Part shown: positions 18,059 through 63,982 of the stretch, one piece after another
Layout: the number at the start of each line of letters is the position of its first letter
Position numbering within the stretch: position 1 is the first letter of the stretch
IMG/VR virus record: IMGVR_UViG_3300020048_000137
Location: 546 to 64,545 of that record
Reading direction: 5' to 3' (one strand)
From: a virus
Taxonomy: Duplodnaviria; Caudoviricetes
DNA length: 64,000 bases
The notes under the pieces: generated by a model
What the model was told of the DNA's origin: nothing
Database searches by the model: none
Seen by the model: only the letters and a program-made list of their open reading frames with translations
Position numbers and translations under genes: made by a program

Positions 18059-18099
18059 TTTGTTCGGTTTTGTTCTTTGTTTGTAATGTATTGATGCTA

Positions 18100-18164
18100 A
18101 GAGACTTAGCGAGCGCACGTTTGTAGTGAAATCTTCCTATGGTTGTCATAACAACTTGTTGTGC
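18100..18164 (+). repeat. Array-start half-site, copy 1
   Basis: 54/61 identical to 26958-27018; ends in core GTT. Confidence 0.85.
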
Positions 18165-18457
18165 CAATGAATCTCGCATTCACGTTGCGCGAGTTCCTTT
18201 GACATGTTTGGACGTGGAGCGTTGTTCGGAATATACTCGTATCCTCCGCCGTTGGCAGGAGAGACAACAGCAACCCACCCTGAGTCTCCCGCCGATTTAA
18301 TGACCGAGTAAGTGGTTCCGCAGGGTGTTTTTGCAACCCACATCGGGTTAGCTGTCGCGCAGTCAGTCCATTCTAAAGAAGATGCACAACAAGCCGCAGC
18401 ACGCGGACTTCGAGGAAGTTGGCTCGCAAGATTGGGGGTGTCGGAGATTTCAGTCAT
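18146..18457 (-). CDS. Cassette-borne hypothetical protein starting inside attC
   Basis: ATG in attC loop, reads through inverse core (RAAACCAS), stops at TGA within the half-site. Confidence 0.65.
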   Translation of the reverse strand: MTEISDTPNLASQLPRSPRAAACCASSLEWTDCATANPMWVAKTPCGTTYSVIKSAGDSGWVAVVSPANGGGYEYIPNNAPRPNMSKELAQRECEIHWHNKLL

Positions 18458-18514
18458 TTCGTTTTTTTTTGTTGTTGGTTACGGCCTCGCAGCCCGTGTG
18501 CTTAGACGTTAGCC
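18384..18514 (+). repeat. attC-like site
   Basis: GCACAACAAG...CAGCACGCGG / CCCGTGTGCT...GACGTTAGCC imperfect inverted repeat. Confidence 0.8.
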
Positions 18515-18548
18515 GGAGAACGGAAGACCCACTCTCCGGCTTGGTTGG

Positions 18549-18737
18549 TTATTCCGTCACGGGTGGTTCCGTCTTCCATCCGCCAGCTGGTGGCATGGCG
18601 ACGAGCGCGTTGCGGCTTTCAATGCGGGCGCACGCCGAAGCGATTGCCATGTAGTCGGCCACGTCTTCGGGGTTGAGATTGCCGACGGACATTCCGTATG
18701 CCAACTCCCGTATCTCTTTCAGTTGTTCTGGTGTCAT
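18549..18737 (-). CDS. Cassette-borne hypothetical protein
   Basis: MTPEQLKEIRELAYGMSV... Confidence 0.55.
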   Translation of the reverse strand: MTPEQLKEIRELAYGMSVGNLNPEDVADYMAIASACARIESRNALVAMPPAGGWKTEPPVTE

Positions 18738-18770
18738 ATGTTTATTTGGTTTTTCCGACGCACCCCCAAC

Positions 18771-18857
18771 GGCTAACAAGACGGTGATGGGAACGGCGAG
18801 AAAGTCTATTGTCGGGGCGGAGTCTTGGGGTCGCCGTCCCATACCTCTGCGTTAGGT
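18771..18857 (+). repeat. attC-like site
   Basis: GGCTAACAAG...GATGGGAACGGCGA / TCGCCGTCCCATAC...GCGTTAGGT. Confidence 0.85.
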
Positions 18858-19010
18858 GGAGAGAATCATGTGAACGATTACCGCGCCTGCGAACGCACAC
18901 ATGAGGTTCATGCCGCCAGGAACCTTCATCACTCTTGGTGACAAGGCTCCGATAAATTCGGGAATCATCCAGCCCGTGCAGGCTCCCGCAATGCAATATA
19001 GTATGGTCAT
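18852..19010 (-). CDS. Cassette-borne 52-aa membrane peptide (not in ORF track)
   Basis: MTILYCIAGACTGWMIPEFIG...HMILST; stop TAA is the TTA of the core site. Confidence 0.55.
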   Translation of the reverse strand: MTILYCIAGACTGWMIPEFIGALSPRVMKVPGGMNLMCAFAGAVIVHMILST

Positions 19011-19045
19011 TTTTTCTTTTGGTTCGGTGTTTGAGATAGGTTCGC

Positions 19046-19135
19046 GCCTAACAAGCGGATCGTGGCGACGGCGAGCAAGCCGTCAGATGTGGTTGGGAGT
19101 CTGATTCCGCCGCCGCCACATCCCTTGCGTTAGCG
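19046..19135 (+). repeat. attC-like site
   Basis: GCCTAACAAG...GATCGTGGCGACGGCG / CGCCGCCGCCACATC...GCGTTAGCG. Confidence 0.85.
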
Positions 19136-19525
19136 AAACCTCGCTTCGGTGATGTATAGGCCATCGGAAAACCTCCCTTTGCGGTATCGCACTAGAACTT
19201 TCTGCCCCGTTTGAGCTTCGTCGTGAGTGCGCTCTGAGACTGTTACACTGTCGGAAAGCTCACCCACCCGCATTACTACAGCCCAGCTTTCTGGATGGTA
19301 GATGAACTGAGTCCACCCGCCTCCGTTGCCGTTGCTGTGATAGATAGTCTGCACCCATGCGGGGCTGTAGTTGTGCCCGCAGACTTCGGCGGTGCCTTCA
19401 CGGTCATCAATGAACCATGAGTCAGCGGCACGGAATACACCCCAGCAAACCAGCCAGAGAACGACAGCCACACAAGCGGCCATCAAGAGAGCTAATAGCT
19501 TTTCGAGCCAATCGCCTTTGAGCAT
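19130..19525 (-). CDS. Cassette-borne membrane-anchored protein
   Basis: N-terminal hydrophobic helix then beta-rich (OB-like) domain; stop within core site. Confidence 0.6.
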   Translation of the reverse strand: MLKGDWLEKLLALLMAACVAVVLWLVCWGVFRAADSWFIDDREGTAEVCGHNYSPAWVQTIYHSNGNGGGWTQFIYHPESWAVVMRVGELSDSVTVSERTHDEAQTGQKVLVRYRKGRFSDGLYITEARFR

Positions 19526-19546
19526 GTCGAGAAAATCGGAAATCAT

Positions 19547-19637
19547 CGCTAACAAGAAAAATGCAGACAACCGCCGAGGGGCGTCTGCTGTGTTGATTTA
19601 CGCCCTCGGCGGCGGTGCCTGATTTTTGACGTTCGCA
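19547..19637 (+). repeat. attC-like site
   Basis: CGCTAACAAG...CAGACAACCGCCGAGGGGCGT / ACGCCCTCGGCGGCGGTGCCTG...GACGTTCGCA. Confidence 0.85.
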
Positions 19638-19885
19638 GGACAAATAATCCATTCTTCGCGCTCGCCAGTCAGCGGCACTCGATAGACGGTCACATCAATC
19701 TTGCATTCGTATTGGTCGCGGACGAGTTTCCCAGCCTGTTTCTTGGACTTCGCGGCAACATATTTCCACCATCCTCCCTTGAATGTCTCGTCGGACACGT
19801 CATAGACCAGTGCCTTATACAGCCTCAAAACCTGCGAACAAGGCGTCGCTGATAACGGGGACTCGCCCCGAGTTGAAGTTTTCAT
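19598..19885 (-). CDS. Cassette-borne hypothetical protein starting and ending inside attC sites
   Basis: MKTSTRGESPLSATPCSQ... to ...CPANVKNQAPPPRA. Confidence 0.6.
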   Translation of the reverse strand: MKTSTRGESPLSATPCSQVLRLYKALVYDVSDETFKGGWWKYVAAKSKKQAGKLVRDQYECKIDVTVYRVPLTGEREEWIICPANVKNQAPPPRA

Positions 19886-19953
19886 TTTGGTTTGGTAGTT
19901 GTGGGAGCAGTCAGCGGGCGCTCCCGCCCCCGTATCAGGACTCATCGTTCTCA
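19833..19953 (+). repeat. attC-like site
   Basis: TGCGAACAAG...CTGATAACGGGG / CCCCGTATCAG...ATCGTTCTCA with one extrahelical base. Confidence 0.85.
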
Positions 19954-20141
19954 CCATTCCGCTCATACGCCTTGGAGTCCAGCGGCAGATTGCAGGCGGC
20001 GGCGGAGAGTTCTCGCGTCAGGCTTTCAATCTCCACTTTTGCGCGTTTGAGCATATCGCCCTCCCGGCTGTTCGGGAATGCGTAGCTGCCGTCAGTTTGA
20101 GCGTAGGCGTGATGGATGTTTTCGAGATATACAGATTTCAT
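19935..20141 (-). CDS. Cassette-borne hypothetical protein
   Basis: MKSVYLENIHH...; C-terminus encoded by attC arm. Confidence 0.55.
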   Translation of the reverse strand: MKSVYLENIHHAYAQTDGSYAFPNSREGDMLKRAKVEIESLTRELSAAACNLPLDSKAYERNGENDES

Positions 20142-20173
20142 TGAAATCGGAGCTTGAGATGGTTTCGGAAGAG

Positions 20174-20264
20174 TGAGAACCAGTCAGCGATGGCGACGCC
20201 GAGCAGCGTCCCCATTTAGGTTGGGAGTCCTTTCCCGTCGTCGCGCCTCACATCAGCGTTAGCA
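20174..20264 (+). repeat. attC-like site (last of array 1)
   Basis: TGAGAAC...GATGGCGACG / CGTCGCGCCTCACATC...GCGTTAGCA; central part shared with 30270-30325. Confidence 0.8.
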
Positions 20265-20482
20265 ATATCATGGACAACGAAGGCGCGTTCACTTGTTTCG
20301 GGGTCGTAGGTTCGGATCACGCCAAACCCTTTTTTCAGAGCTTGGTCGATCAGAGCTTCCACTGCGTATTTGAGGCCTCGGATGCTTTCGGCTTGGCAGA
20401 TAGCGTCCTCGGTCAATACAAAGCGCATGGGGAGCTTCGCGAATGGATCAGGCTGGGATATTACGGAATCGTTTGGTTTCAT
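20216..20482 (-). CDS. Hypothetical protein ending inside attC
   Basis: C-terminus ANADVRRDDGKGLPT is attC-encoded. Confidence 0.55.
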   Translation of the reverse strand: MKPNDSVISQPDPFAKLPMRFVLTEDAICQAESIRGLKYAVEALIDQALKKGFGVIRTYDPETSERAFVVHDIANADVRRDDGKGLPT

Positions 20483-20524
20483 CAGAGTTTTCAGGTTGTT
20501 CGGTTTCGCCCATTTGGTGCTGTA

Positions 20525-21007
20525 TCACCACCGTAAAACGGTAGCGTAAAATTCTGAAACCTGGTCGTCGGTAAGTTCCTTAATCACGCTCACCCCGTAT
20601 TTCGCACGGAGGGCGTCGAAGGTGGCCTTCACCGTGCCTTCGGTGTCGGCGAGGAGCTTGCCCTTGATGACCTCCTTCAGCGCGTTGCGAAGTTCGGCGA
20701 CGGGGAGGTCGGGGACTTCGGGTGCAGCTTCGACCGTGCCTCCGCAGTCTTCTTCGGCGGGATGGATGTCGAGGTCGGAGCCGCCGTTCTCTTCGGGGGT
20801 TTCCTCAGCGACGGGTGCAAGGCACTCGGGTTCCGGCTCGGGTTCGACGACGGCGAGCAGTGCGGCTTTCGCGGCACGCTTCTTCGGCGTGGTCGGAACC
20901 AGTGTGTCGGCGGCGGTGACGGCTCCGACGCTCAGGATCTCCCGGAGCGCGGCGGTGTTTTCTTTGAGAGCTTGGGTAAGCTCGGCGAGTTGTTGTTCAA
21001 TGGTCAT
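20525..21007 (-). CDS. Phage protein typical of DUF2800/DUF2815/PolA clusters
   Basis: N-terminal coiled coil, acidic linker, C-terminal helical domain (AKYGVSVIKEL). Confidence 0.6.
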   Translation of the reverse strand: MTIEQQLAELTQALKENTAALREILSVGAVTAADTLVPTTPKKRAAKAALLAVVEPEPEPECLAPVAEETPEENGGSDLDIHPAEEDCGGTVEAAPEVPDLPVAELRNALKEVIKGKLLADTEGTVKATFDALRAKYGVSVIKELTDDQVSEFYATVLRW

Positions 21008-21278
21008 ACGGTGTGTTTCTGGTTAAGTGCCGCCGCGATTGCGAAGGCGGTGAGAGTGGCTGCGATGAGGATGAGTTTCATGTCAGCCTCTTTCCTTGAT
21101 GAGGGTGACAAGAAACCATGTGAAGCAGAGGATGGCGATCCCTTGCACGGCAGGGTGGAACTCGGTAATTACGGTGGCGATCATGGTCGGTCTGAGTTAC
21201 GAAAACAATATGCGGTAATTTGTCAAAATGTCGAGAAGTTTTTTCGGAAATCGTTGGAGGGCTTATGGGGTAAGGGAT

Positions 21279-22046
21279 TCAGATGTCGATGGAGTCCACG
21301 TATGCGCGGTGAATCCGCCCCTGACAGATGGCAAAATACTCCTCGTCGCGCTCGATGCCGATGAAGCGACGACCCGTGTTCATGCAGGCTACGCCCGTCG
21401 TCCCGCTGCCCATCGTGTTGTCGAGGACGAGTTCTTCGGGGTTGGTGTAGGTCTTGGTGAGATACTCCATCAGGGCGACGGGTTTCGCTGTTGGATGGAT
21501 ATTCAGACCGTCGGTTGCAAATTCCAGGACGGTATTAGGGTATCCGGTCTGCTTCTGGACATAAGCTCCGTGGGAAGGACTTTTCCTGAAATGCACATCC
21601 GAATTGCTCTTGCCTTTGTAATCCCGTTTCTCGTTGATTTCGGTCAGACCTTGTGGGAAGTAAGGCATTCTGTTCTCACTCAGATTGGCGTGGTTTGTGG
21701 TGGCCGAACTGAAAACGCACACGTCCTCGTGCTTCTTCATCGGCTTGTTTTTAGCGTGGGCAAAATTCGTCGGGCGGTTCTTCACCCACACCCAGCAATA
21801 CTTGAACATGCTGAGATTCGACGCGATCAGGACACTCGTGAAAGGCTGCGATGCCGTCAGCACAATCGCCGCGTTCTTCTTCGTCACCCGCCGATACGCT
21901 TCCCATAGCGGCTCAAACGGGATGACTGTGTCCCACTTGCACGCAGTCGTCCCATACGGCAGATCGCAGAGGATCATGTCGATGCTCCCGTCGGGAATCT
22001 CTTTCATCCGTTCCAACGTGTCTCCTAGTTTCAGTTCGTAGTTCAT
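21279..22046 (-). CDS. DNA N6-adenine/N4-cytosine methyltransferase (beta class)
   Basis: Catalytic DLPY precedes SAM motif DNTMGSGTTG; HPTAKP. Confidence 0.92.
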   Translation of the reverse strand: MNYELKLGDTLERMKEIPDGSIDMILCDLPYGTTACKWDTVIPFEPLWEAYRRVTKKNAAIVLTASQPFTSVLIASNLSMFKYCWVWVKNRPTNFAHAKNKPMKKHEDVCVFSSATTNHANLSENRMPYFPQGLTEINEKRDYKGKSNSDVHFRKSPSHGAYVQKQTGYPNTVLEFATDGLNIHPTAKPVALMEYLTKTYTNPEELVLDNTMGSGTTGVACMNTGRRFIGIERDEEYFAICQGRIHRAYVDSIDI

Positions 22047-24589
22047 AAATCAGGCATCCTCTCTTCCAAAAGTTCAATCGGGTCATCAAGTCCATCCATA
22101 AACCCGTCGATGCTCACATACACCCGAGTCCGCTCACCGCCGACCTCGAACACCTTTGCGTTCTCGTAAGCACGGTATCCCAAAATGTGCAGGTAATGTG
22201 AAGCCCGTGCATTGTTCCGCCCAAGCAGCGCGGTCTCCCGCTCGACCTGTGCGTAGTGGATCACGTCCTTCCCGATCAGGGGATACGCGGGGTCGGCGAT
22301 GAGGTCTTCGATCTGGATGAGCATGGGGTTCTTGCCAGCATCGACAAGCTCATGGCGGAACACGGTGTCGGGGGCGTGGCCGTTCGGATTGAATGTTTCG
22401 CTGATCTGATATGTCAGGTAGAACTGGCGGAACGCACCGGGGTTATCCCTTATCAGGTCGTGAATCCGTGTGCAGACGCCCGTGTTCAGGAACGCGACGA
22501 CCTGCGACTTCGATTGCAAGCGGCTTTTCAGGATCATGTATCTGCGGTCGCTGTCCTCCAGCACCAGTGCGTCGTGTTTATTTGATGTCACGAAGTAGTT
22601 CGTGACGTTCACGATGTTCCGCAGGTCGCGGAACTTCTGCTGGACGGGGATGCGGTCGTTCGCGATGGCGTCCTTCAAACTGTTGTTGACTTCGTGACGG
22701 TTCGACCCCGCCGAGAAAAGCTCGTCGATGTAATTGAGATGTACACCTTCGCGCCACTCGTCGAACCCGCTGCCCGTCATCTTCGACCCTGTGATGATCC
22801 TGAAATTGGCTTCACCGATGGCGGCTTGCACGGTGTCCATGAGGGTTCCCTTGCCGCAGCCCTGCCCACCTTGGAGGAACGGCGACCACCGGATCTTGTG
22901 ACCCGGACGCTGGACGCAGTAGGCGAGCCAGTCGAGGACGTGGCGAACGTGGTTCTCGTCGGCGAGGTTCGCCCGTAGCAGGGCTAGGATGAGGTTGCCC
23001 GCCCGCTCGGCACCGATGGGGGAAGCGGACGGCACGGAGGACTTCAGGTAGGTGTTCACGAACCACTTGCCGTCCCGCTCAAAGTAAATGTCGTCGCCCT
23101 TTTTCTCCTTGTCCCCGTCGAACGCTTCGCGGGGATCATACACCGAGTCGTCCACGATCTTGATCCCTGCGGTGAACAGGGCATACGAGGATGCGGAGAT
23201 CGGGACATCGCCGTCCGGGGTGACGAGGTTCCGCCCGAACGTGTGGTTGAAAGCATCGGTGGTGTATTCCGCCCCAGTGACAGTGTTCCTGAAACGGTCA
23301 CGCGGACCTATGAAGCAGAACGGCAGCATCCAGGATGGTTTCTCGGCCTTCGCGCCGTCGTGCTTCTCCTGCCTGCGGAGACGTTTCATGTCCTTGAGGA
23401 TGGATGTCTTGCTGACCGACTTCCCGGATCGCTTGACCGCTTTCACGATCATGTCGGCCATCATCTCCTCGTCGGTGTCGGACGGTATGGGGAGCGCGGC
23501 GATCTTGCGGATGCCTTCCCGCAGCACGGTGTCCCCGTCCGTCGCCTCGCACCACTGCGAGAAAGCCGCGACGATTCCGTTAGTGAGTTTCTCGTGCGTC
23601 CACCCGGACTGCATGGCGTGGTGGAACAGGGTGCGGAGGGTGATCGGGTTCCGGCCTTCGGGGTAGGGCTTGAAGCTGCGCCACTTCAGGAGACACTCGT
23701 CCCTGTCCTTGTACTTCGCACCCTGCGACGACCATTCGTGGAACATCTCGAACGCTTCGCGGGCGATGTCCTCCTCGGTGAACTGGTGGCGGAGGGCTGC
23801 GGCGATCTCATACCACTCTCGGTAGCCGCAGTCAGCCGAGATGGCGTAGAGAGGTTCCCGGATGTCGTCGAGCGACATACCCGTTAAGGGTAGATTCAGG
23901 ATGCTGCCCTCCTTCATGTCACCCGCCTCGGGGGTGTAGGCATACCCGCTATCGTCCGGTGTAGGTGACTCGGTCGTCTCGGGCAGGGTCGTAGCGTCGA
24001 GCCGCTTCCCGTCGAGGCGGTCTGCGATCACGGCGTTGTAGTCCTCCCCCTGAAAGTGAAGGGGGCGGTATTGGGGCTGTGAGATGATGAGGGACTCGGG
24101 CTTGCCTTTGAAGGAAGCGGGGAGTCCGAGCAGCCCGATGACGTGCAGCACGGCACGCTTGAATAGCGCGGGTTCCACCGTTAGGCAGTCCACCATGATC
24201 TTGATGCGCGGCTCTGCGGGCGTATGCTTCGCTGTCGTCCATGCCACGAAGTTGTAGGGTGACAGGGCTTCGCGGATCGTGTCCGGCGAATTGAAAAAGT
24301 CGGCGGCTTCCGCACCGTCGAGGTCGATGATGATGAGGTTGAACCCCGTCGCACTTTCGTTCAGCCTTGCACACTCATCTTCTGGGTAAGTGGCAGCACC
24401 GAGCCACGCGCCGTCCTTCAGCTTGTCCCTGTCCGGGTGTGCAAGGAAGTCCCGACGCTTCATCGGGAACGCGACGGGAACGTGGACTTGCGACTGCACG
24501 AGATCCTTGAACGTCTCGGCGGCGAGGAGGCGGACGCGGCCACCTTGAACACTGCGACCACCAAAGAAGCGTGTGGGGGTGTCACTCAT
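22043..24589 (-). CDS. Primase-helicase (PriCT_2-like plus SF3/DUF5906-like ATPase)
   Basis: YREWYEIAAAL...WSSQGAKY; Walker A GGQGCGKGT; NYIDEL; DSDRRY. Confidence 0.88.
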   Translation of the reverse strand: MSDTPTRFFGGRSVQGGRVRLLAAETFKDLVQSQVHVPVAFPMKRRDFLAHPDRDKLKDGAWLGAATYPEDECARLNESATGFNLIIIDLDGAEAADFFNSPDTIREALSPYNFVAWTTAKHTPAEPRIKIMVDCLTVEPALFKRAVLHVIGLLGLPASFKGKPESLIISQPQYRPLHFQGEDYNAVIADRLDGKRLDATTLPETTESPTPDDSGYAYTPEAGDMKEGSILNLPLTGMSLDDIREPLYAISADCGYREWYEIAAALRHQFTEEDIAREAFEMFHEWSSQGAKYKDRDECLLKWRSFKPYPEGRNPITLRTLFHHAMQSGWTHEKLTNGIVAAFSQWCEATDGDTVLREGIRKIAALPIPSDTDEEMMADMIVKAVKRSGKSVSKTSILKDMKRLRRQEKHDGAKAEKPSWMLPFCFIGPRDRFRNTVTGAEYTTDAFNHTFGRNLVTPDGDVPISASSYALFTAGIKIVDDSVYDPREAFDGDKEKKGDDIYFERDGKWFVNTYLKSSVPSASPIGAERAGNLILALLRANLADENHVRHVLDWLAYCVQRPGHKIRWSPFLQGGQGCGKGTLMDTVQAAIGEANFRIITGSKMTGSGFDEWREGVHLNYIDELFSAGSNRHEVNNSLKDAIANDRIPVQQKFRDLRNIVNVTNYFVTSNKHDALVLEDSDRRYMILKSRLQSKSQVVAFLNTGVCTRIHDLIRDNPGAFRQFYLTYQISETFNPNGHAPDTVFRHELVDAGKNPMLIQIEDLIADPAYPLIGKDVIHYAQVERETALLGRNNARASHYLHILGYRAYENAKVFEVGGERTRVYVSIDGFMDGLDDPIELLEERMPDL

Positions 24590-26399
24590 GCGGGATTACC
24601 TCCATGCAGATTTCGATAAACATGGCTGCGAGCGGGGCTACGATGGAATTCCCGTAACCCTTCAAGCGCATCACCCTTGCTTCCGACGTTTCGTTGGCAT
24701 AGCCCGGTGCGCCCGGATCGCAGCTTGGCACCACTCCACGGGGTAGCCCTGCAACCAACGGGGCAGAGCCGCGTTGAGTACGCCGGGCTTTGCCGTCGCG
24801 GCAGGGGATGAGGTCAAAGTCTGACCAGAATCCAGTCCGTCGGGGTCGGTGAGCTTCGCCTGATGACCGAGCATCTGCTGCATCTTCGACCCCGGCAGAC
24901 CCGCTGCGTCGTCGTTCGCTGACGGCGTGAGCCATCCGCTGATCTGCTTCGGCTGAGTCAGTCCAACTTGTCGCCCCAGCTGGTCGAGCCTGTTGCGGAT
25001 GCTGCCGTCCGGGTTCACTCCCGTCTCCGACATTCCCGGCGAGTCCTTGTGATCCCTCGCTCCGGGTGTCGCCCATCCAGCGAGCGTAAAGCACTCCGTC
25101 GCGCTCGTCATAATCGTACCCATCTTGGATGGGGCCGGGACATTCGCAGTCCTCGGCGTAGGTGAGTCCGCAGATGGAGCATTCGTCTCCGGGTTCATCG
25201 TCGCCCCCTCCGAGGCAGTCAGCGGCGAAGGATACGCGTTTCCAACCATCACTGATGCCTGTTCCCCCAAATTCCCCGGCACATACTGGCGACCCATCGA
25301 CTCTCGGTAAGCTATCCGCTTCTCCATCCCCTCTTTCGTGCGAGTCATATTCGTGGTTGTGGGGGTCATCCATCCGCAGATTGGCATCGCAGCCTGCGCC
25401 TCGTGAGTCAGACCCACTTGGGCAAGCCGTCCCGTGATCTTGTCGTAAGCCCTCTGCCCCGGTGTCCACGGGTTGCCCTCCGAGTCCACAAGTCTGTCGA
25501 GGCTGACTCCCGGCTCCGACGTTGCGGGGCTGCGCCATCCGGTGATCGGTGGTTCGGTCAGATGTTGCGCTGTGTGCGCCAGTTGCGATGAATGGTTCGG
25601 TCTCGCCATCCACCGCGCCGAGTATGCTTGTGGATCGCTGCTCCTGGATGCGTTCACGTCCGCGCAGTTCGGTGTCGGCCATCCTGCTATTGGTTGACTC
25701 GCAGCTTCCGCTGCCAGATTCATCTGACCGCCGCCCTTGCGTTTCGCGAAGTGAACCTTCTCGCAGTTGTCCGTGGTCTTCGGAGTGTTCGGAGTGTTCG
25801 GAGTGTTCGGAGTGTTCGGAGTGTTCCACCCCACGATATGCGACCCAGTAGAGCCGCTGCCGGATGTGGGGTGCCCCGATGACGATTCGCTCCCAAGTCT
25901 CCTGATCTCCACGCACAAGCCGTCCTTCGCCGTCCTCCCCCGCGCACGGAGCGCATAGATCGAGGGCTGTGACGGGATAGCCCATTGCTTGCAAGTCCAG
26001 ACATACTCCGGGGAACCATTTTTCCCTTGCAATCTTGCTGCTAACTTGTTCGCCAATAAGGACTGGAGGTCGGCACTCGCTGACAAGGCGTTGAAAGACA
26101 GGCCAGAGGTGTCGCTCGTCGTCGGTTCCTGCTTGCTTTCCGGCGGATGAGAAGGGCTGACATGGGAGGCTGGCTGTCCACACGGGTCGGTCGTCCGGCC
26201 ATCCTGCGAGCTTGAGGGCGAGACTCCAGCCTGATACTCCAGCGAACCAATGTGCCTGCGTAAAACCGCGCAGATCGGATGGTTCGACTTCAGTAATGCT
26301 TCGATCATCGACATGTCCGTAAGGTATTTGTTTGTCCGCGATAAGCTGGCGTACCCACGCCGCTGCCGTTGGACAAAATTCGTTGTAATATGATGCCAT
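24582..26399 (-). CDS. C5-cytosine DNA methyltransferase, large (alpha) chain
   Basis: Motif I FAGVSG, IV LPCQPFS, VI GEQV, VIII HIRQRLYW, X LKGYGNSIV; no motif IX in this frame. Confidence 0.85.
   Translation of the reverse strand: MASYYNEFCPTAAAWVRQLIADKQIPYGHVDDRSITEVEPSDLRGFTQAHWFAGVSGWSLALKLAGWPDDRPVWTASLPCQPFSSAGKQAGTDDERHLWPVFQRLVSECRPPVLIGEQVSSKIAREKWFPGVCLDLQAMGYPVTALDLCAPCAGEDGEGRLVRGDQETWERIVIGAPHIRQRLYWVAYRGVEHSEHSEHSEHSEHSEDHGQLREGSLRETQGRRSDESGSGSCESTNSRMADTELRGRERIQEQRSTSILGAVDGETEPFIATGAHSATSDRTTDHRMAQPRNVGAGSQPRQTCGLGGQPVDTGAEGLRQDHGTACPSGSDSRGAGCDANLRMDDPHNHEYDSHERGDGEADSLPRVDGSPVCAGEFGGTGISDGWKRVSFAADCLGGGDDEPGDECSICGLTYAEDCECPGPIQDGYDYDERDGVLYARWMGDTRSEGSQGLAGNVGDGSEPGRQHPQQARPAGATSWTDSAEADQRMAHAVSERRRSGSAGVEDAADARSSGEAHRPRRTGFWSDFDLIPCRDGKARRTQRGSAPLVAGLPRGVVPSCDPGAPGYANETSEARVMRLKGYGNSIVAPLAAMFIEICMEVIPHE
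24671..26314 (-). CDS. Nested alternative-frame ORF, putative MTase beta chain (547 aa)
   Basis: Open over 1.6 kb in +1 frame; repeated W-x-[TS]-P modules; motif IX-like LNAALPRWLQGYPVEW. Confidence 0.72.
   Translation of the reverse strand: MSMIEALLKSNHPICAVLRRHIGSLEYQAGVSPSSSQDGRTTDPCGQPASHVSPSHPPESKQEPTTSDTSGLSFNALSASADLQSLLANKLAARLQGKNGSPEYVWTCKQWAIPSQPSIYALRARGRTAKDGLCVEIRRLGSESSSGHPTSGSGSTGSHIVGWNTPNTPNTPNTPNTPKTTDNCEKVHFAKRKGGGQMNLAAEAASQPIAGWPTPNCADVNASRSSDPQAYSARWMARPNHSSQLAHTAQHLTEPPITGWRSPATSEPGVSLDRLVDSEGNPWTPGQRAYDKITGRLAQVGLTHEAQAAMPICGWMTPTTTNMTRTKEGMEKRIAYRESMGRQYVPGNLGEQASVMVGNAYPSPLTASEGATMNPETNAPSADSPTPRTANVPAPSKMGTIMTSATECFTLAGWATPGARDHKDSPGMSETGVNPDGSIRNRLDQLGRQVGLTQPKQISGWLTPSANDDAAGLPGSKMQQMLGHQAKLTDPDGLDSGQTLTSSPAATAKPGVLNAALPRWLQGYPVEWCQAAIRAHRAMPTKRRKQG
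25779..25823 (+). repeat. Tandem repeat (TTCGGAGTG)x5
   Basis: Exact 9-bp unit; encodes (HSE)5 in one frame and NTP repeats in the other. Confidence 0.95.
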
Positions 26400-26405
26400 A
26401 TAGGT

Positions 26406-26606
26406 TCACGCTCCCTCCCCAGTGAGGTAGTCCTCTAACATCTGAGCGTCATTGAAAGACATTTTCTCAGTCTCACCTTTCAGGACGCGGCGCAGACGGT
26501 AATAGCCTATGCCTGTGAGGGTGGACAAAAGGGAAACTGCCACTCCAGTTTTTTCAATATGAGAGCGGGTGCGGTTAATGATATTCTCAGTCGGATCGTC
26601 AGTCAT
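26406..26606 (-). CDS. Small HTH (XRE/Cro-like) regulator
   Basis: AVSLLSTLTGIGYYRLRRVLKGE...MSFNDAQMLEDYL. Confidence 0.6.
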   Translation of the reverse strand: MTDDPTENIINRTRSHIEKTGVAVSLLSTLTGIGYYRLRRVLKGETEKMSFNDAQMLEDYLTGEGA

Positions 26607-27007
26607 GGTGCGGGAGACAGGGTGGTTGTTTGGTGTTTTGGTGTCAATGGCTTTTTTGCAAATTTCTTTCCGAGTAGAACCGGACGGACTTTTTCCAGTA
26701 TCCACGCCATGCCATGAGGCTTCGACTTCCACCCATCTGGCGTGCGTAAGCGGAAATTATTGATGCGATCTCCGCGCTCAATCACCCAAGAGGTGACTTT
26801 ACCAGATGCAAAGTCGTGGTATCGGATCGAGCCTAGCGCGGAACCTTCCCGCAGCGGCGGATTCATTTCCAATTCGCGCAAAACTTCCGGCGTAATCTCT
26901 GCCAGTCGCCGATCACGCTGCACCTGCTGTGATCGCTTTCCCATAGCACTCATTCTTAGAGACTTAGCGAGCGCACGTTTGCGGGAGAATCTTCCCATGG
27001 TTGTCAT
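26603..27007 (-). CDS. Hypothetical protein starting in array-2 half-site
   Basis: MTTMGRFSRKRALAKSL...; ATG overlaps TGA of upstream antisense ORF. Confidence 0.6.
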   Translation of the reverse strand: MTTMGRFSRKRALAKSLRMSAMGKRSQQVQRDRRLAEITPEVLRELEMNPPLREGSALGSIRYHDFASGKVTSWVIERGDRINNFRLRTPDGWKSKPHGMAWILEKVRPVLLGKKFAKKPLTPKHQTTTLSPAP

Positions 27008-27022
27008 AATAACTTGTTCGGC
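26958..27022 (+). repeat. Array-start half-site, copy 2
   Basis: Colinear copy of 18100-18164. Confidence 0.85.
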
Positions 27023-27067
27023 AGAGAAATTTTTTGTTTCCACAAGACATAGATAAGGATCGCGGCC

Positions 27068-27793
27068 ATGCCCCAAAACGACAAGCAGACGCAACCAGCA
27101 AAGAATGCCGCACCCCATAATAAAACAATGTCTGAATCTATCGAATGGTGGTCTGTATTCTGGGCTGTTTCTGGCTTAGTTCTAGGTGGAGCTGTAGCCA
27201 TTGTCGCATTTGTGGCTTTCTTTTTTTCATGGAAGGCAGGCAAACTCAAGGATGCGGAGTTCAAATTATACAAGGAGGACTCTGCAAAAGCTGTCGCCTC
27301 GGCAGACGCTACGGCGGCAGACGCTAACAAGATCGCGGCAAAGGCTAATGAACGAGCAGCAAACCTTGAGAAAGAAGCCGCTGACAGCCGCCTAGAACTT
27401 ATGAAGCTACAGCAGAAGCTCGCATGGCGCATCATCGAAGAACCTGCACGGAATGCCTTCTTCAATGCCACGGCAACCGTGCCAAAAGCTAAAATCCAAA
27501 TTTCATATCTATCAAATAGTGAGGAGGTTTTAAACTTTACAGCGCAGCTTGTAGAGATGTTTAGAGAGGCTGGATATGATTGCCCAAAATCTTTCGATGA
27601 AATGGGTTCTTTTATGCCAATGGGGCTTGCGATAGGGCTAGTAATCACCGTCAGAGACGAGAGCCACCAAGAGGGAGCGCAATTCCAGCACGCTTTAATG
27701 CGTGCTGGAATTGAAGCGTCAGTCCGATTTATTTCCGAGATTGGCAATGACGACATTCTTCTTGAGATCGGAGCTAAACCATCAAATAAATAA
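27068..27793 (+). CDS. Top-strand cassette gene: TM helix, coiled coil, globular domain
   Basis: Stop immediately before inverse core; AT-richer than phage core; start may be ATG 27128. Confidence 0.75.
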   Translation: MPQNDKQTQPAKNAAPHNKTMSESIEWWSVFWAVSGLVLGGAVAIVAFVAFFFSWKAGKLKDAEFKLYKEDSAKAVASADATAADANKIAAKANERAANLEKEAADSRLELMKLQQKLAWRIIEEPARNAFFNATATVPKAKIQISYLSNSEEVLNFTAQLVEMFREAGYDCPKSFDEMGSFMPMGLAIGLVITVRDESHQEGAQFQHALMRAGIEASVRFISEIGNDDILLEIGAKPSNK

Positions 27794-27917
27794 GCCGAAC
27801 AAGGCGGCGCATACAGCCCGCCGCCCGCTGTTGAATCAAAGTTACTCATGATTACTCTCCTTTCCGTCCATACGTCCGCGCTGAGTGGCAGCGGTTGCAT
27901 GGCCTAAGACGTTCGTT
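27794..27917 (+). repeat. attC-like site
   Basis: GCCGAACAAGGCGGCGCATACAGCCCGCCGCC / GGCAGCGGTTGCATGGCCTAAGACGTTCGTT. Confidence 0.9.
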
Positions 27918-27945
27918 AAGAAATTTTTCATAATACAAAATCGAG

Positions 27946-28215
27946 ATGAGATTAAAAGACAAGATACTGGTCGCCGCTGTGGCATTGCTGATTATCACTT
28001 GGTTGATCCCACCCACTAATGATGTGCAACAAGTTTATCGTTACAGGAAAGTGGAGGCAGTAGAGGAGTTTGTAGGATTCCATTTTATTTTCTTCAAAGA
28101 CCGGTATCGAAGAGAACTCAAGATTGATTGGGCGAAGCTGTCGTTGCTGAATCTGGCCATTTTGGGTGCAGGTGGGGCGGCATATTTTCTGGTTTCTAAG
28201 AAGGGTGAATTATGA
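27946..28215 (+). CDS. Top-strand cassette gene, 2-TM membrane protein
   Basis: Hydrophobic N- and C-terminal helices. Confidence 0.65.
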   Translation: MRLKDKILVAAVALLIITWLIPPTNDVQQVYRYRKVEAVEEFVGFHFIFFKDRYRRELKIDWAKLSLLNLAILGAGGAAYFLVSKKGEL

Positions 28216-28577
28216 GTGAGTTGCCTGAGACCCTAGACGAGTGGCGCGATCACTACATCCCGCAAGGATTGGAAGTCATAGAAGCGGTAGTCAACCACTC
28301 CAATAAGGTCGGGAATCAACGCCTTGGTGCGGTAGCGGCTAAGGTTCATCTGGAGCGGGCGCGTCACGAGGATCTGCTTCGTAAGATTGCGGAATCTGGG
28401 AAGCACCATTGGTCGGCGACTCCTGGGTTTTGGGTAGCTGTTGGCGGATTTCTTCTAGCTGGTCTTGCAGCATGGTTTGCTTGGCAGTCAATACCTCATC
28501 CCACGCCGCAAGACGCAGGTTCCCAACCGAGTTCATCACCGACGCCGCCCCCAACAGTATCACCGACGCCCCCGTAA
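28212..28577 (+). CDS. Top-strand cassette gene, membrane protein with Pro-rich tail
   Basis: ATGA-coupled second ORF in same cassette. Confidence 0.65.
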   Translation: MSELPETLDEWRDHYIPQGLEVIEAVVNHSNKVGNQRLGAVAAKVHLERARHEDLLRKIAESGKHHWSATPGFWVAVGGFLLAGLAAWFAWQSIPHPTPQDAGSQPSSSPTPPPTVSPTPP

Positions 28578-28588
28578 TAATGAAGAGT

Positions 28589-28713
28589 AACGAACAAGGC
28601 GGCGCATTGCAACCCGCCCCCCGCTTTCCATTCAGGTCGCTCACTTGTCACCTCTCTTTCCGTGCTGCGGAGTGCGCTGAGTGGGAGCGGGTGCATGGCC
28701 TTTGACGTTAGCC
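28589..28713 (+). repeat. attC-like site
   Basis: Close relative of 27794 and 29220 sites. Confidence 0.9.
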
Positions 28714-28733
28714 ATGAAAGAAGAGTTCCCATT

Positions 28734-29225
28734 ATGAGCGCCACCGACCTCGCGAAAGACGCGATCCGCATTGTCAGCACCGCCGGACTCAGCAAAGATG
28801 TTATCGACCTTCTCAGCCTGAAGATCACGCTTCTGGATGACAAGATTTCGATGCTCTCGCAGGAGGTTCTCACGCTCACGCAGGAGGTTCTTACTCTCAA
28901 GGGTAAGAATTTTGACCTTCTTCGAGAGCTTGAAGAGCTTAAAAAGCAGAAGGGCGACTTGTCCCCATTTCCTGATGGATTCGACGACACGACGAACAGG
29001 ATTGTTGACACGATGTTTGGTGCTCGGGATGTTTCCAAGGAGGATATTGCCGGACATTTGGGAATTGAGTTTGGAGTTGCGGAGTATCATTTCGATTTAT
29101 TGTTGAGGGAGAGTTTTATATACCAGACTAGGATAGGCATGACTTTCAATCATGGACGAACCCCGGCGGGATTCAGTTTGACACCTGAAGGGCGAGCATA
29201 TGCCGTCAAAATGAAGAAAGGCTAA
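28734..29225 (+). CDS. Top-strand cassette gene: coiled coil plus winged-helix-like domain (163 aa)
   Basis: Start ATG 28734; FSLTPEGRAY wing motif; stop is inside inverse core. Confidence 0.7.
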   Translation: MSATDLAKDAIRIVSTAGLSKDVIDLLSLKITLLDDKISMLSQEVLTLTQEVLTLKGKNFDLLRELEELKKQKGDLSPFPDGFDDTTNRIVDTMFGARDVSKEDIAGHLGIEFGVAEYHFDLLLRESFIYQTRIGMTFNHGRTPAGFSLTPEGRAYAVKMKKG

Positions 29226-29344
29226 CAAGGCGGCGCATTGCAACCCGCTGCCCGCTGTGGAATCAAAGTTACTCATGGTCACTCTCCTTTCCGGTTATCG
29301 ACCCGCGCTGAGTGGCAGCGGGTGCATGGCCTTTGACGTTCACC
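29220..29344 (+). repeat. attC-like site
   Basis: GGCTAACAAGGCGGCGCATTGCAACCCGCTGCC / GGCAGCGGGTGCATGGCCTTTGACGTTCACC. Confidence 0.9.
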
Positions 29345-29616
29345 AGAGATTCCGTGGCGACGTTTTCCAGTTCTTCGAAAGTCGGTTCGCGGAACCGTCC
29401 GCATTGGAATCCTGGCTCGATTCCGTGTTGGTTAGGTCGGTTCTCCAGTTCGCGGAGTAGCACGGCGCATGTCCCGCGCAGCTTCCAGTCTTGGGCTGGC
29501 ACGATGTTCCGCACCGTGTAGATGTTTCCTTTGCGTGGGAGCGCGTTGAAGATGTCGTTGATTCCAGCAGGGAATCGGTCTTCGATGCAGACCACTTTGG
29601 CGTTGATGTCGAACAT
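29269..29616 (-). CDS. Bottom-strand cassette gene (phage-type hypothetical, SH3-like)
   Basis: KVVCIED...IYTVR...RFRE; ends inside attC loop. Confidence 0.65.
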   Translation of the reverse strand: MFDINAKVVCIEDRFPAGINDIFNALPRKGNIYTVRNIVPAQDWKLRGTCAVLLRELENRPNQHGIEPGFQCGRFREPTFEELENVATESLVNVKGHAPAATQRGSITGKESDHE

Positions 29617-29647
29617 GGTTTTTGAGTCGTTAGGTGATTCGGAAGAA

Positions 29648-29737
29648 GGTGAACAAGTCGTGGGTGGTCAACCGCCGGGAACGTCTTTCGGCAAAGCGGA
29701 GCCCAGCGTCGGCGGTGCCACCACTGGAACGTTCGGG
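29648..29737 (+). repeat. attC-like site
   Basis: GGTGAACAAG...GTGGGTGGTCAACCGCCG / CGGCGGTGCCACCAC...AACGTTCGGG. Confidence 0.85.
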
Positions 29738-30072
29738 CAATAGACTTCCAGCGCGTCATTGGCCGGGCGCGGTAGGTGGCCGACGATTTCACGCCAGCCG
29801 GTGATCGCTTCCCATCGGGCAACGCACGGATCGGATGGCGGAAGGTCGAGATAGTTCCGGCGGATGAGGTAAGTATCCCCTTCGTTTAGATTCACGGACC
29901 GGACGTTCATCCACGCGCCACTGTCGCCAAGACGCTTGAGCATATCGGAGATTGCTTCCGCGATTGAGATTTTCCGGGCTGCATCGGATCGTAGCACGGA
30001 AGCCTTATCCTTTAATGCCCGAACAATGCGTCGCTGATCGACGGGCTGAATCGTTCCATTTTCTTCACTCAT
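29668..30072 (-). CDS. Bottom-strand cassette gene starting and ending inside attC sites
   Basis: MSEENGTIQPVDQRRIVRA...; SD-like AAGGA in attC arm. Confidence 0.65.
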   Translation of the reverse strand: MSEENGTIQPVDQRRIVRALKDKASVLRSDAARKISIAEAISDMLKRLGDSGAWMNVRSVNLNEGDTYLIRRNYLDLPPSDPCVARWEAITGWREIVGHLPRPANDALEVYCPNVPVVAPPTLGSALPKDVPGG

Positions 30073-30116
30073 CGGCTTTTCCTTTTTCGCCTGCGTCAGG
30101 ACTTTTTGCGTTCATC
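30018..30116 (+). repeat. attC-like site
   Basis: CCCGAAC...CTGATCGACGGGC / GCCTGCGTCAG...GCGTTCATC with two extrahelical bases. Confidence 0.8.
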
Positions 30117-30219
30117 AAGAATGGAGATGGATAATCAGGGCTATCACCGCTCCAGCGAATAGCGAACCCGCGACGATGATGAATGTGCCAAGTTGCCAGT
30201 CTATTTTAGTTCCGTGCAT
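30115..30219 (-). CDS. Cassette-borne 34-aa single-TM peptide (not in ORF track)
   Basis: MHGTKIDWQLGTFIIVAGSLFAGAVIALIIHLHS; stop in core site. Confidence 0.5.
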   Translation of the reverse strand: MHGTKIDWQLGTFIIVAGSLFAGAVIALIIHLHS

Positions 30220-30252
30220 TTGTTGTGGCGTTGGTTGGTTTTAAATAAAGAT

Positions 30253-30325
30253 GATGAACAAGTTTGTAGAGGCGACGACGGGCAGCGTCCCCATTTAGGT
30301 TGGGAGTCCTTTCCCGTCGTCGCGC
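30253..30325 (+). repeat. Truncated attC-like site
   Basis: Inverse core GATGAAC and centre shared with 20174 site, but right L'/R' arm absent. Confidence 0.7.
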
Positions 30326-30675
30326 GATTGCTCGGCGTCCACTCGGTTCAAGGCGTCTGCTGCGGTGTCAAAATAGCCAAGGCTTTTTGTTCCGATCCGA
30401 GCTTGATATGGCTTGCGATAAAAAACGTTCGGCGGGAGCTTGGCACTCCCTGGAGACAGCGTCTTTGGTCGCCCTGCTTTCGCGTCGCTGAAAACTGCAC
30501 CTTCAGTGATTAACTTCTCATACGCGATGTCACGGTGAGCGCGTGCAAGGGTTTCGTCGGTCGTATTTAACGCGATGCGCCGCTGAATGCCGTCCTCGCG
30601 GAATAATAGAAACCACCTCCCCCTTACGCAGACGAGCCCGTGGTTTGGTTTATTGGATTTGTAGAGCTGGATCAT
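30295..30675 (-). CDS. DNA-binding protein (integrase-arm/AP2-like beta-sheet domains)
   Basis: RGRWFLLFREDG-RRIAL-TTD and YQARIG...LGYFDTAADA; no catalytic recombinase domain. Confidence 0.5.
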   Translation of the reverse strand: MIQLYKSNKPNHGLVCVRGRWFLLFREDGIQRRIALNTTDETLARAHRDIAYEKLITEGAVFSDAKAGRPKTLSPGSAKLPPNVFYRKPYQARIGTKSLGYFDTAADALNRVDAEQSRDDGKGLPT

Positions 30676-31116: not shown

Positions 31117-31404
31117 CTATTGACTTATTGACGTATTGAATTGTTCGACCCTTCGTTGAATGTCACGCTTCGCCTCTTCGGCTTCATACTCAATCTGCCT
31201 GCGAAGACTGTCAAGTTCATCCCGAACTTCATTTTTATACTCCTCCGGGTCTACGATCCCAACGAGCGGGAGAATATGCTCACAGATCAGACGCTCCGCG
31301 TCGTTGTCGGTGTTGATGTGGTGCCGTAAAAGTTCGGCGATTTCTGGTATGGTGTTCACGATGTTTATGGTGCTCATGGTGTTCATGGTGTTCATGGTGT
31401 TCAT
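31117..31404 (-). CDS. Hypothetical protein with MNT N-terminal repeats
   Basis: 9-bp tandem repeat encodes [12 protein letters not shown]. Confidence 0.55.
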
Positions 31405-31582
31405 GGTGTTATTTCGTCAAAACCCCCTCTTCCTCGGCGCAACGGATGATGTCCGCCATCGCTGCCCGAATGCTATGGGATTACTTCATGTAATTACCTC
31501 CATTGGTTGTGCGCCCGTAATAGGGGCTGGCACCCCGAAACCCGCTGGCTCTTGCGAACTCAGCGGGCGGGTCAAAGCGAAG

Positions 31583-63411: not shown

Positions 63412-63430
63412 GTGTAACCATGAAATTACA

Positions 63431-63517
63431 AACGAACGTCATAGGCCATGTGCGCCGCGATGAACTCCAACCAGATCAGACGCCTTCAACGGCGTCGCAT
63501 GTGCCGCCTTGTTCGCT
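63431..63517 (-). repeat. attC-like site
   Basis: + strand AACGAAC...GGCCATGTGCGCCG / CGGCGTCGCATGTGCC...CTTGTTCGCT, two extrahelical bases. Confidence 0.85.
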
Positions 63518-63594
63518 TGGTCTTTTTCACGATGCACGCCAAACCGCCGCATTGGCACCGACAAATGGGGAACTTCCTCGGGGGACTGAAGAGC

Positions 63595-63864
63595 TTAGGC
63601 GTTCGACGGCTTCGGTTCGTGAGTTTTTATGGTCTTGTAGTCCGCCACACTTGCGACATAAACGCCCGACCCGTCTTGGATTGTGGCTGCGACAGTCGCA
63701 AGCAGGTCGTCTAGTTCAAACTCTGTGTCTGTGGTTATATGATACACAGCTCCGTGTATATGAAAGTGTGGTTGGAACTGCTGCATCAGAGCGTGATAGG
63801 CGCGATAATCGGCTAAGTTACCTTTTGGATTTAGAGAGATGGCGTAGCGGTATTCCGAGTTCAT
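63595..63864 (-). CDS. Top-strand cassette gene, possibly ferredoxin-fold (Cas2/VapD-like pattern)
   Basis: 89 aa within cassette; YAISL...Y..L...YHITT pattern; fold is a guess. Confidence 0.55.
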   Translation of the reverse strand: MNSEYRYAISLNPKGNLADYRAYHALMQQFQPHFHIHGAVYHITTDTEFELDDLLATVAATIQDGSGVYVASVADYKTIKTHEPKPSNA

Positions 63865-63895
63865 GCGTGGAGTTGGAGTTCAGGGATTATTTTTT

Positions 63896-63982
63896 AGCGA
63901 ACGACCAAGTGGAGGCACGCCGGAAATGAATACCGAATCCAAGAAAGACGTTATCGGCGTTGCCTCGCACGCCTTGTTCGGC
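63896..63982 (-). repeat. attC-like site
   Basis: + strand AGCGAAC...TGGAGGCACGCCG / CGGCGTTGCCTCGCA...CTTGTTCGGC, two extrahelical bases. Confidence 0.85.

What the first reader, a model, noticed from the sequence alone, without database searches (positions are those of the whole stretch)
18146..30325. attC bottom strand doubles as a translation module (start, stop, SD, coupling)
Seen: genes start inside attC loops and read out through the inverse core (ATG 18457, 19885, 30072; also 27849, GTG 28644, 29276). Genes stop in the core TTA/TCA (18852, 19130, 30115) or read through the arm into the loop (19598, 19935, 20216, 29269, 29668). In the 27794/28589/29220 family the loop carries GGAAAGGAGAG or GGAAAGAGAGG upstream of the start. 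At 29269-29276 the stop lies next to the following start. In all three arrays the bottom strand is the phage mRNA strand. Known: classical cassettes are expressed on the top strand from Pc. Inference: an inverted plug-and-play system in which recombination sites contribute protein termini and keep operons coupled after shuffling.
Basis: partly seen in the sequence, partly recalled or inferred. Interest (0 to 1): 0.88.

Follow-up and report, generated by a model that had tools for sequence, protein, structure and literature searches.

The report
Phage integron cassettes read backwards, in-frame
This freshwater phage carries three arrays of genuine integron-type gene cassettes whose genes lie on the opposite strand to classical cassettes, so gene ends overlap the recombination hairpins and cross the recombination point in one fixed reading frame. 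Phage cassette arrays were already known; this layout appears to be a new variant.

Summary
The hairpins are canonical attC sites, and the window is almost a whole 64.5-kb phage genome with no recombinase of its own (a CALIN).

**Confirmed**
- In all three arrays the attC bottom strand is the phage mRNA strand.
- Cassette genes stop in the R' core (18852, 19130, 30115) or read through it into the next attC.
- ATGs at 18457, 19885 and 30072 lie in attC loops behind the A/C-rich leaders typical of this phage.

**Not supported**
- The starts at 27849, 28644 and 29276 open shadow ORFs antisense to real + strand genes.
- Shine-Dalgarno use is rare in this phage.
- The 29269/29276 stop-start overlap therefore couples to nothing real.
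- Stops in the core occur about as often as chance predicts.

**New here**
- Every long bottom-strand ORF that crosses the crossover reads AA|C as the codon AAC (about 21 of 21).
- 34 of 37 attCs carry a stop in that frame.
- One cassette protein has different C-terminal tails beside different attCs in other phages, diverging exactly at the crossover.
- The insertion site ends in a TGA that overlaps the ATG of a conserved downstream gene.
- A Mu-like phage contig carries a shared cassette beside an IntI homologue.

Orientation is clade-specific: phage TJE1 is canonical, P12002L is inverted.

Verdict: a new variant of a known kind. Other notes of this scan cover the same arrays.

The parts
18158..18164 (+). 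Entry (attI-like) core GTTGTGC of array 1. On the mRNA strand it reads AA|C AAG TTG TTA TGA, and the TGA overlaps ATG 18149 of the next ORF.
18384..18514 (+). attC a1 (131 nt, top strand +). ATG 18457 of the 103-aa ORF 18146..18457(-) lies in its loop behind an A-rich leader.
18771..18857 (+). attC a2. The ORF 18852..19010(-) stops at TAA, the TTA of the R' core GTTAGGT.
19046..19135 (+). attC a3. The ORF 19130..19546(-) stops at TAA in the R' core GTTAGCG.
19547..19637 (+). attC a4, the own site of the 138-aa cassette gene, whose ATG 19546 abuts R''. The upstream ORF crosses R' in phase 2 and stops at 19598 in the loop. The whole cassette recurs in L021/L022.
19833..19953 (+). attC a5 (121 nt). 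Candidate starts 19885 (loop) and 19945 (L' arm). The upstream ORF 19935..20141(-) crosses R' in phase 2 and stops 4 codons later.
20174..20264 (+). attC a6, the last site of array 1. The flanking gene 20216..20482(-) crosses R' in phase 2 and stops in the loop. It is 87% identical to the site at 30256-30325.
27016..27022 (+). Entry core GTTCGGC of array 2. On the mRNA strand it reads AA|C AAG TTA TTA TGA, overlapping ATG 27007 of a conserved 134-aa gene (26603..27007, -).
27794..29344 (+). Three related attCs: b1 27794-27917, b2 28589-28713, b3 29220-29344. They follow classical top-strand genes 27068..27793, 27946..28215, 28212..28577 and 28734..29225 (+). Their loops carry the GGAAAGGAGAG-type motif plus ATG/GTG on the minus strand.
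It is the own site of the 115-aa gene 29269..29616(-), which crosses b3's R' at GGTGAA|C in phase 2 and ends in b3's loop. The ORF 29668..30072(-) ends in its L'' arm.
30018..30116 (+). attC b4. ATG 30072 of the 134-aa gene lies in its loop. The 34-aa ORF 30115..30219(-) stops at TGA on the edge of the R' core GTTCATC.
30253..30325 (+). Truncated attC b5 (R'' GATGAAC, no proper R'). The flanking gene 30295..30675(-) ends in it.
63431..63982 (-). Array 3, top strand on minus: c1 63517->63431 and c2 63982->63896, with a third site c3 at record 264->223 (L001). The neighbouring phage genes are on +.

Best explanation
The phage carries integron cassette arrays without an integrase (CALINs). Its cassettes are 'inverted': the gene lies on the attC bottom strand, so it is co-transcribed with the phage's replication-module and neighbouring operons.

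In mRNA order each cassette is its own attC, then the gene, then the crossover AA|C. This has three consequences.
1. A gene's leader and sometimes its first codons lie in its own attC. In the long 99-131-nt sites they lie in the loop.
2. A gene either ends with its own stop, often TAA|C, or has none. Without a stop it crosses the crossover with AA|C read as the Asn codon AAC and terminates a few to about 30 codons later in the neighbour's attC.
3. At the insertion site the same frame ends in a TGA overlapping the ATG of the conserved downstream gene.

Shown: canonical attC anatomy, the orientation, cassette exchange exactly at the crossover, context-dependent tails, and the frame rule.

Inferred:
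- The frame rule is selected because only that frame terminates at the ATGA when a cassette enters.
- Ribosomes running into the 5' arm of the RNA hairpin open it for the next initiation.
- The integrase comes in trans, from the host or from IntI-encoding temperate phages such as L021.
For: attC anatomy:
- R''/R' boxes, a ~5-nt unpaired spacer and two bulges 6 bp apart on the AAC arm of the top strand, in 33 sites (rule from PMC5027507).
- Matched-core chain: 14 links against 0-1 in shuffles.

Recombinase: no IntI or other tyrosine recombinase in the complete genome.

Relatives:
- Phages with 96, 90 and 60% identical primases carry arrays in the same orientation.
- Their cassette contents are unrelated.

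Cassette exchange:
- The 115-aa protein belongs to a 30-member cluster at 90% identity. Its tails diverge exactly after ...LVN, the AAC of GGTGAA|C. It sits beside three different attCs in another phage lineage.
- The 138-aa gene with its own attC recurs in L021/L022 with different neighbours on both sides.
- L021 also encodes an IntI homologue. It scores 220.8 bits on TIGR02249, and its best solved relative is VchIntIA 2A3V (E 5e-35, full length).

Frame rule:
- Phase 2 holds the long upstream ORF at every crossed junction in the window and in L002, L003, L007, L013 and L021.
- This includes a Pfam DNA-methylase cassette that ends AAC AGA TGA.
- About 21 of 21 when public gene calls are used.
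- Null from the phage's own genes: AAC is in frame 49% of the time and AACG 65-67%.
- A phase-2 stop lies inside 34 of 37 attCs, against 23 and 17 for the other phases.

Entry site: the ATGA overlap occurs at both window entry sites and in L007.

Population hint: one metagenome contig joins the R' cores of b2 and b4 across a 4-nt CGTT overlap, skipping three cassettes.
Against: - No RNA, ribosome or protein data. No listed run is on record as RNA.
- Start codons are inferred. Three of the six array-1 genes start outside or at the edge of their attC (19010, 20141, 19546). The 19598 ORF has several candidate starts.
- Read-through tails are not conserved, so they may be tolerated junk rather than functional termini.
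- Arrays 1 and 2 share both flanks, and the relatives' arrays sit at a homologous place. Orientation therefore counts as only a few independent events.
- The frame rule is partly expected from codon structure (null up to 0.67).
- The ATGA explanation was seen only where the conserved downstream gene exists. No matching entry core was found in L002 or L003.
- The excision joint rests on one contig at depth 2 with a 24-nt side.
Confidence: 0.68

Rival explanations
1. Passive overlap only. The sites are attCs, but the overlaps of starts and stops with them are a neutral by-product of inverted gene orientation in a tightly packed phage genome. No translation-related function or standard exists.
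For: - Tails differ between contexts and are not conserved.
- Stops in the core are used at about chance frequency: 3 of 7 cores that contain TAA or TGA.
- Half of the array-1 genes start outside the attC.
- Long open antisense frames are common in this genome, so open frames alone mean little.
- AAC tends to be in frame in any coding sequence.
Against: - About 21 of 21 crossings are in one frame, against a null of 0.49-0.67.
- Phase-2 stops lie inside 34 of 37 sites, against 23 and 17 for the other phases.
- The ATGA overlap at the entry site is conserved across phages whose primases are only 60% identical.
Confidence: 0.22
2. attC loops are dedicated translation modules with a Shine-Dalgarno sequence, a start, a stop and stop-start coupling. 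This includes the 27794/28589/29220 family, whose loop starts would drive translation through the neighbouring cassettes.
For: - The motif plus ATG/GTG is present in all three loops.
- The 281-codon frame from 27849 has no stop, against 4.6 expected under synonymous shuffling (P 0.002). It ends at the entry-site ATGA.
- A similar frame crosses the array-3 cassette (P 0.017).
Against: - Pipelines call the + strand genes.
- The 241-aa + gene has homologues at 44-47% identity, E 1e-47 to 6e-49.
- The antisense ORF has only weak hits, E 1e-7 or worse.
- Shine-Dalgarno motifs are rare upstream of confident genes.
- Antisense runs of 100-300 codons are usual here.
- b1 and b3 are 85% identical, so motif conservation can be by descent.
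Confidence: 0.07
3. The hairpins are not recombination sites but RNA-level signals, such as RNase III sites or terminators, between phage genes.
For: - They are intergenic or gene-end hairpins on the transcribed strand.
- attC hairpins are thought to act as weak terminators (PMC9892861).
Against: - Matched cores between successive sites.
- Canonical bulges.
- Identical cassettes in unrelated phages with breakpoints exactly at AA|C.
- An IntI homologue beside such an array.
Confidence: 0.03

Closest known systems
Clusters of attC sites lacking an integrase (CALINs) in phage genomes (Qi et al. 2023, PMC9892861)
   Same: attC arrays in virulent phages without IntI, cassettes of unknown function and methylases, and an array boundary at a terminator-like site (array 3). 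Their P12002L site also has its top strand opposite to the flanking methylase genes.
   Different: That paper does not describe gene orientation relative to the attC strand, overlap of coding ends with attC, or any reading-frame regularity. TJE1, its clearest array, is classical: top strand is the gene strand.
Classical integron cassette arrays (class 1, Vibrio chromosomal integrons)
   Same: Same site anatomy, crossover at G|TT, cassette = gene + attC, and matched cores. In L021 the geometry is the same too: intI lies at the attI side, antisense to the attC top strand.
   Different: Classical genes are on the top strand and are expressed from Pc at the attI end. Here most genes are on the bottom strand and read towards the insertion site (towards intI in L021). 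A newly inserted cassette is therefore last, not first, in the operon. About three quarters of these genes lack their own stop.
ORF-11/ORF-18 in attI1 and short ORFs inside attC (reviewed in PMC8876359)
   Same: Translation signals embedded in recombination sites. The stop for ORF-11 is supplied by the GTTRRRY core of the inserted cassette. Termination-reinitiation and hairpin melting help the next cassette.
   Different: Those act on the top-strand transcript of mobile integrons and involve short leader peptides. Here full-length cassette proteins cross the core on the other strand, in one fixed frame.
Reverse-oriented cassettes in chromosomal integrons (for example toxin-antitoxin cassettes; from my own knowledge, not checked here)
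   Same: The gene lies on the attC bottom strand.
   Different: Those are a minority, carry their own promoters, and are antisense to the array transcript. Here the inverted genes are the majority and follow the operon's direction.

Membership tests
integron attC site | Conserved AAC (R'') and GTT (R') triplets in 7-nt inverse-core and core boxes at the two ends | tested here: met
   All sites; the flanks read ....AAC-AAG and C-GTT..... Several boxes depart from strict RYYY/RRRY.
integron attC site | Imperfect hairpin with an unpaired central spacer and 2-3 extrahelical bases on the R''-L'' arm, first and last 6 bp apart | tested here: met
   Constrained folds of 33 sites. The second bulge is A on the top strand, T on the bottom, as in the rule quoted from PMC5027507.
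integron attC site | Length 57-141 nt with a variable terminal structure | tested here: met
   87-133 nt for most. One site of 42 nt (c3) and one of 63 nt (L021) are at or below the usual range.
integron cassette array | R'' of each cassette complementary to the R' preceding it (footprint of circular cassettes) | tested here: met
   14 exact links against 0-1 in shuffles. The relation is strand-symmetric, so it does not by itself assign the strand.
integron cassette array | The same cassette found in different arrays with breakpoints at G|TT | tested here: met
   The 115-aa gene and the 138-aa gene with its attC.
complete integron | Integron integrase and attI next to the array | tested here: not met
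   No TIGR02249 or PF00589 match in the 64.5-kb record, so the window holds CALINs. An IntI homologue is present in L021.
integron attC site | Recombined by an integron integrase as a folded bottom strand | not testable with these tools
   Only an indirect hint: one contig joins two R' cores.
integron attC site | Score above threshold with the IntegronFinder or HattCI models | not tested
   Those models are not among the tools. Rfam gave only the tmRNA.
classical cassette expression | Gene on the attC top strand, transcribed from the attI end | tested here: not met
   9 of the window's cassette genes are on the bottom strand. Only the b1-b3 cassettes and one array-3 cassette are classical.
   The motif exists, but the ORFs are shadow ORFs and the phage rarely uses such motifs.
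   18457, 19885/19945 and 30072 in the window, and 5146, 5855, 6168 and 6683 in public gene calls of L002. No experimental start mapping.
   The phase-2 rule and phase-2 stops.

The most novel reading that the evidence does not exclude
A phage dialect of the integron with a reading-frame standard. Most cassettes carry no stop and end so that the invariant AA|C is an Asn codon. Every attC supplies a stop in that frame, and long attCs also supply the next gene's leader and start. The insertion site supplies a TGA overlapping the ATG of the gene behind it. Any order of cassettes then gives a translatable, coupled operon read towards the integrase end. The integrase is supplied by temperate phages such as L021.
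Probability: 0.35. Interest if true: 0.85.

Novelty: new variant of a known kind. Interest (0 to 1): 0.66.

Why it matters
Integrons are studied as bacterial gene-capture devices read from one promoter on one strand. Here several phage lineages use the same recombination chemistry with the genes turned round, and cassettes are exchanged between unrelated phages.

The coding frame is locked to the crossover. If this holds in a wider survey, it would be a clear case of a site-specific recombination system and translation constraining one another. It would also identify a gene-exchange network among phages that current tools report only as orphan attC clusters. Finally, it would give simple sequence rules for finding phage accessory genes and their true ends.

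Tried and rejected
- Energy-only and duplex-only hairpin scans were unspecific and dropped.
- A single-protein search for relatives in viral contigs found nothing. Named phages are only about 25-28% identical in primase.
- A pattern for the b-type attC found no other viral contig. It found three chance matches in bacterial genomes, none an attC, so no host or donor integron was identified.
- Relatives cannot be drawn for a virus record, and the loci's records are not held.
- Pfam gave no family for any cassette protein. PHROGs named only the terminase and a virion protein.
- No RNA holder was listed among the sequencing runs, so transcription strand and 5' ends could not be examined.
- A search for more IntI-encoding viral contigs gave only two distant partial hits.
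- The idea that the 281-codon antisense frame is a selected 'bridge' ORF was considered. It is kept only as an unexplained oddity: P is 0.002 in one test, but long antisense frames are usual here.
- The weak resolvase-like match (12.9 bits) was dismissed.


Full report
**What the window is.**
The window is bases 546-64545 of a 64,545-base IMG/VR virus record rated 100% complete. Its 'terminal repeat' is a 45-base assembly overlap. It encodes:
- a minus-strand replication module: SNF2 helicase, family A polymerase, Enc34-type SSB, DUF2800 nuclease, two methylases and a PriCT-2/DUF5906 primase;
- an amidase;
- a large terminase and a 4006-aa virion protein;
- a tmRNA.

It has no integron integrase, no other tyrosine recombinase and no credible serine recombinase. 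The runs that hold the phage are aquatic and freshwater metagenomes.

**Are the sites real attCs?**
Reading the sequence shows hairpins of 87-131 nt that begin ....AAC-AAG and end C-GTT..... The 7-mer at the start of each site is the exact reverse complement of the 7-mer ending the previous site. An automatic detector using these rules found 14 links in the window, against 0-1 in 20 shuffles.

That relation is strand-symmetric, so I assigned the strand from structure. In constrained folds of 33 sites from the window and its relatives, the stem carries two single-base bulges 6 bp apart on the arm that also carries AAC. The second bulge is A. Nivina et al. 2016 state that extrahelical bases lie on the AAC arm in the top strand, and that a 6-bp spacing and a bottom-strand T are typical (PMC5027507). 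So + is the top strand in arrays 1 and 2, and minus is the top strand in array 3. In all three arrays the bottom strand is the strand of the surrounding phage genes.

**Evidence that cassettes move.**
- Relatives with 96, 90 and 60% identical primases (L002, L003/L004, L007) have arrays upstream of the primase in the same orientation. Apart from one attC, nothing between their attCs matches the window by blastn, although the core genes do.
- No counterpart of array 1 was detected in L002, L003 or L005. It shares both flanks with array 2.
- The 115-aa cassette protein (29269..29616) belongs to a 30-member cluster at 90% identity with lengths of 96 to 152 aa. Aligned, the members are the same up to ...ESLVN and then differ.
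- The N of that motif is the AAC of GGTGAA|C, the reverse complement of R' GTTCACC. The divergence point is therefore the crossover. These homologues sit in a different phage lineage, next to other attCs.
- The 138-aa gene (19130..19546) together with its own attC recurs in two Mu-Gam-type phage contigs with different neighbours on both sides.
- One of those contigs, L021, encodes an IntI homologue. It scores 220.8 bits on TIGR02249, below the curated 265. Its best solved relative is VchIntIA 2A3V, aligned over the full length including the integron-specific insert. The gene lies at the attI end and antisense to the attC top strand, as in a classical integron.
- One metagenome contig joins 28705 to 30109 across a shared CGTT. 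These are the R' cores of b2 and b4, and the joint skips three cassettes. This is weak evidence, but it is in the right place.

**The translation claims.**
ATG 18457, 19885 and 30072 are in loops, preceded by A/C-rich leaders like those of most confident genes of this phage. Public gene calls in L002 independently place four starts inside attCs and stops in the core or loops.

Three array-1 genes start outside or at the edge of their attC. The 19598 ORF has several possible starts, and pipelines chose 19945.

The b1/b2/b3 part fails:
- Pipelines call the + strand genes.
- The 241-aa + gene has homologues at 44-47% identity.
- The 281-aa antisense ORF has only weak hits.
- Antisense open runs of 100-300 codons are usual in this genome.
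- Shine-Dalgarno motifs are rare.
- So the stop/start overlap at 29269-29276 couples a real gene to a shadow ORF.
- Stops in the core are used in 3 of 7 cores able to supply one, which is about chance.

**What I found beyond the finding.**
At every junction where a long bottom-strand ORF crosses the crossover, AA|C is read as the codon AAC. This holds for six ORFs in the window. It also holds in L002, L003, L007, L013 and L021, including a Pfam DNA methylase ending AAC AGA TGA.

Counting only public gene calls, this is about 21 of 21. In the phage's own genes AAC is in frame 49% of the time and AACG 65-67%, giving P between roughly 3e-7 and 2e-4. ORFs in the other two frames all stop in or before the core.

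A stop in that frame lies inside 34 of 37 attCs, against 23 and 17 for the other frames.

At both window entry sites the frame runs AAC AAG TT(G/A) TTA TGA, with the TGA overlapping the next ATG. In L007 a different sequence gives the same ATGA overlap onto a homologue of the same downstream gene. The other two frames would either fuse to that gene or run into it out of frame.

**Interpretation.**
The descriptive core is solid: phage CALINs with inverted cassettes, and termini partly encoded by attCs.

The functional reading is inferred:
- Selection for one frame at entry keeps the downstream gene coupled.
- Ribosomes running into the hairpin's 5' arm help the next initiation. This is analogous to ORF-11 and to the short ORFs inside attCs known from classical integrons (PMC8876359).

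The changing, unconserved tails argue that the attC-encoded C-termini themselves are tolerated rather than useful.

**How general is it?**
It is not universal. Tetrasphaera phage TJE1, whose attCs were shown to be functional by Qi et al. 2023, has the classical orientation. Polaribacter phage P12002L has an attC whose top strand opposes its flanking methylase genes. Arrays 1 and 2 and the relatives' arrays are related by descent, so independent orientation events are few.

Phage CALINs are published (PMC9892861). The inverted layout, the stop-less cassettes and the frame rule are not mentioned in that paper or in the 2022 review of cassette expression that I searched. I therefore rate this a new variant of a known kind.

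Noticed in passing
L021:4536-7966: A Mu-Gam-type phage contig with an IntI homologue directly downstream of, and co-directional with, a four-cassette inverted array. The attI-proximal cassette encodes a C5 DNA methylase. This is a complete integron in a phage whose cassettes are read towards intI.
   Followed up: partly
window 18094-18160 and 26952-27018: A 67-nt element (87% identical) marks the insertion end of arrays 1 and 2. It contains the start of paralogous ORFs (MTTIGRF.. and MTTMGRF..). The array-1 copy heads only a 55-aa ORF, whereas the array-2 copy heads a conserved 134-aa gene with a homologue in L007.
   Followed up: partly
window 28705/30109: One contig of metagenome run X1 joins the R' cores of two attCs across a shared CGTT, deleting three cassettes. 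Another contig leaves the reference at 29725 and continues into a different core (GTTATGC). This suggests cassette variants within one sample.
   Followed up: partly
window 27004-27849 (-) and 63420-63929 (+): Bottom-strand frames stay open across whole classical (top-strand) cassettes and end at ATGA overlaps. Synonymous shuffling gives P 0.002 and 0.017, but long antisense frames are common in this genome.
   Followed up: partly
window 31580-31925 (-): A complete tmRNA gene (Rfam 120 bits) inside the phage genome, close to the upstream end of array 2.
   Followed up: no
window 25768-25830 and 31349-31411: Two runs of 9-nt tandem repeats (TGTTCGGAG x5 inside the C5 methylase gene; ATGGTGTTC-like x5).
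   Followed up: no
window 42324-54344 (+): A 4006-aa ORF with only a faint virion-structural PHROG match. Relatives L008 and L009 have similar 3800-4400-aa genes next to the primase region.
   Followed up: no
L025 (Polaribacter phage P12002L) 30005-30061: The attC between two methylase genes has its top strand on +, while both genes are on the minus strand. This is an inverted cassette in an isolated phage.
   Followed up: partly
whole window: Most confident genes have A/C-rich leaders without a Shine-Dalgarno motif, suggesting a host that initiates translation without one. The host was not identified.
   Followed up: partly
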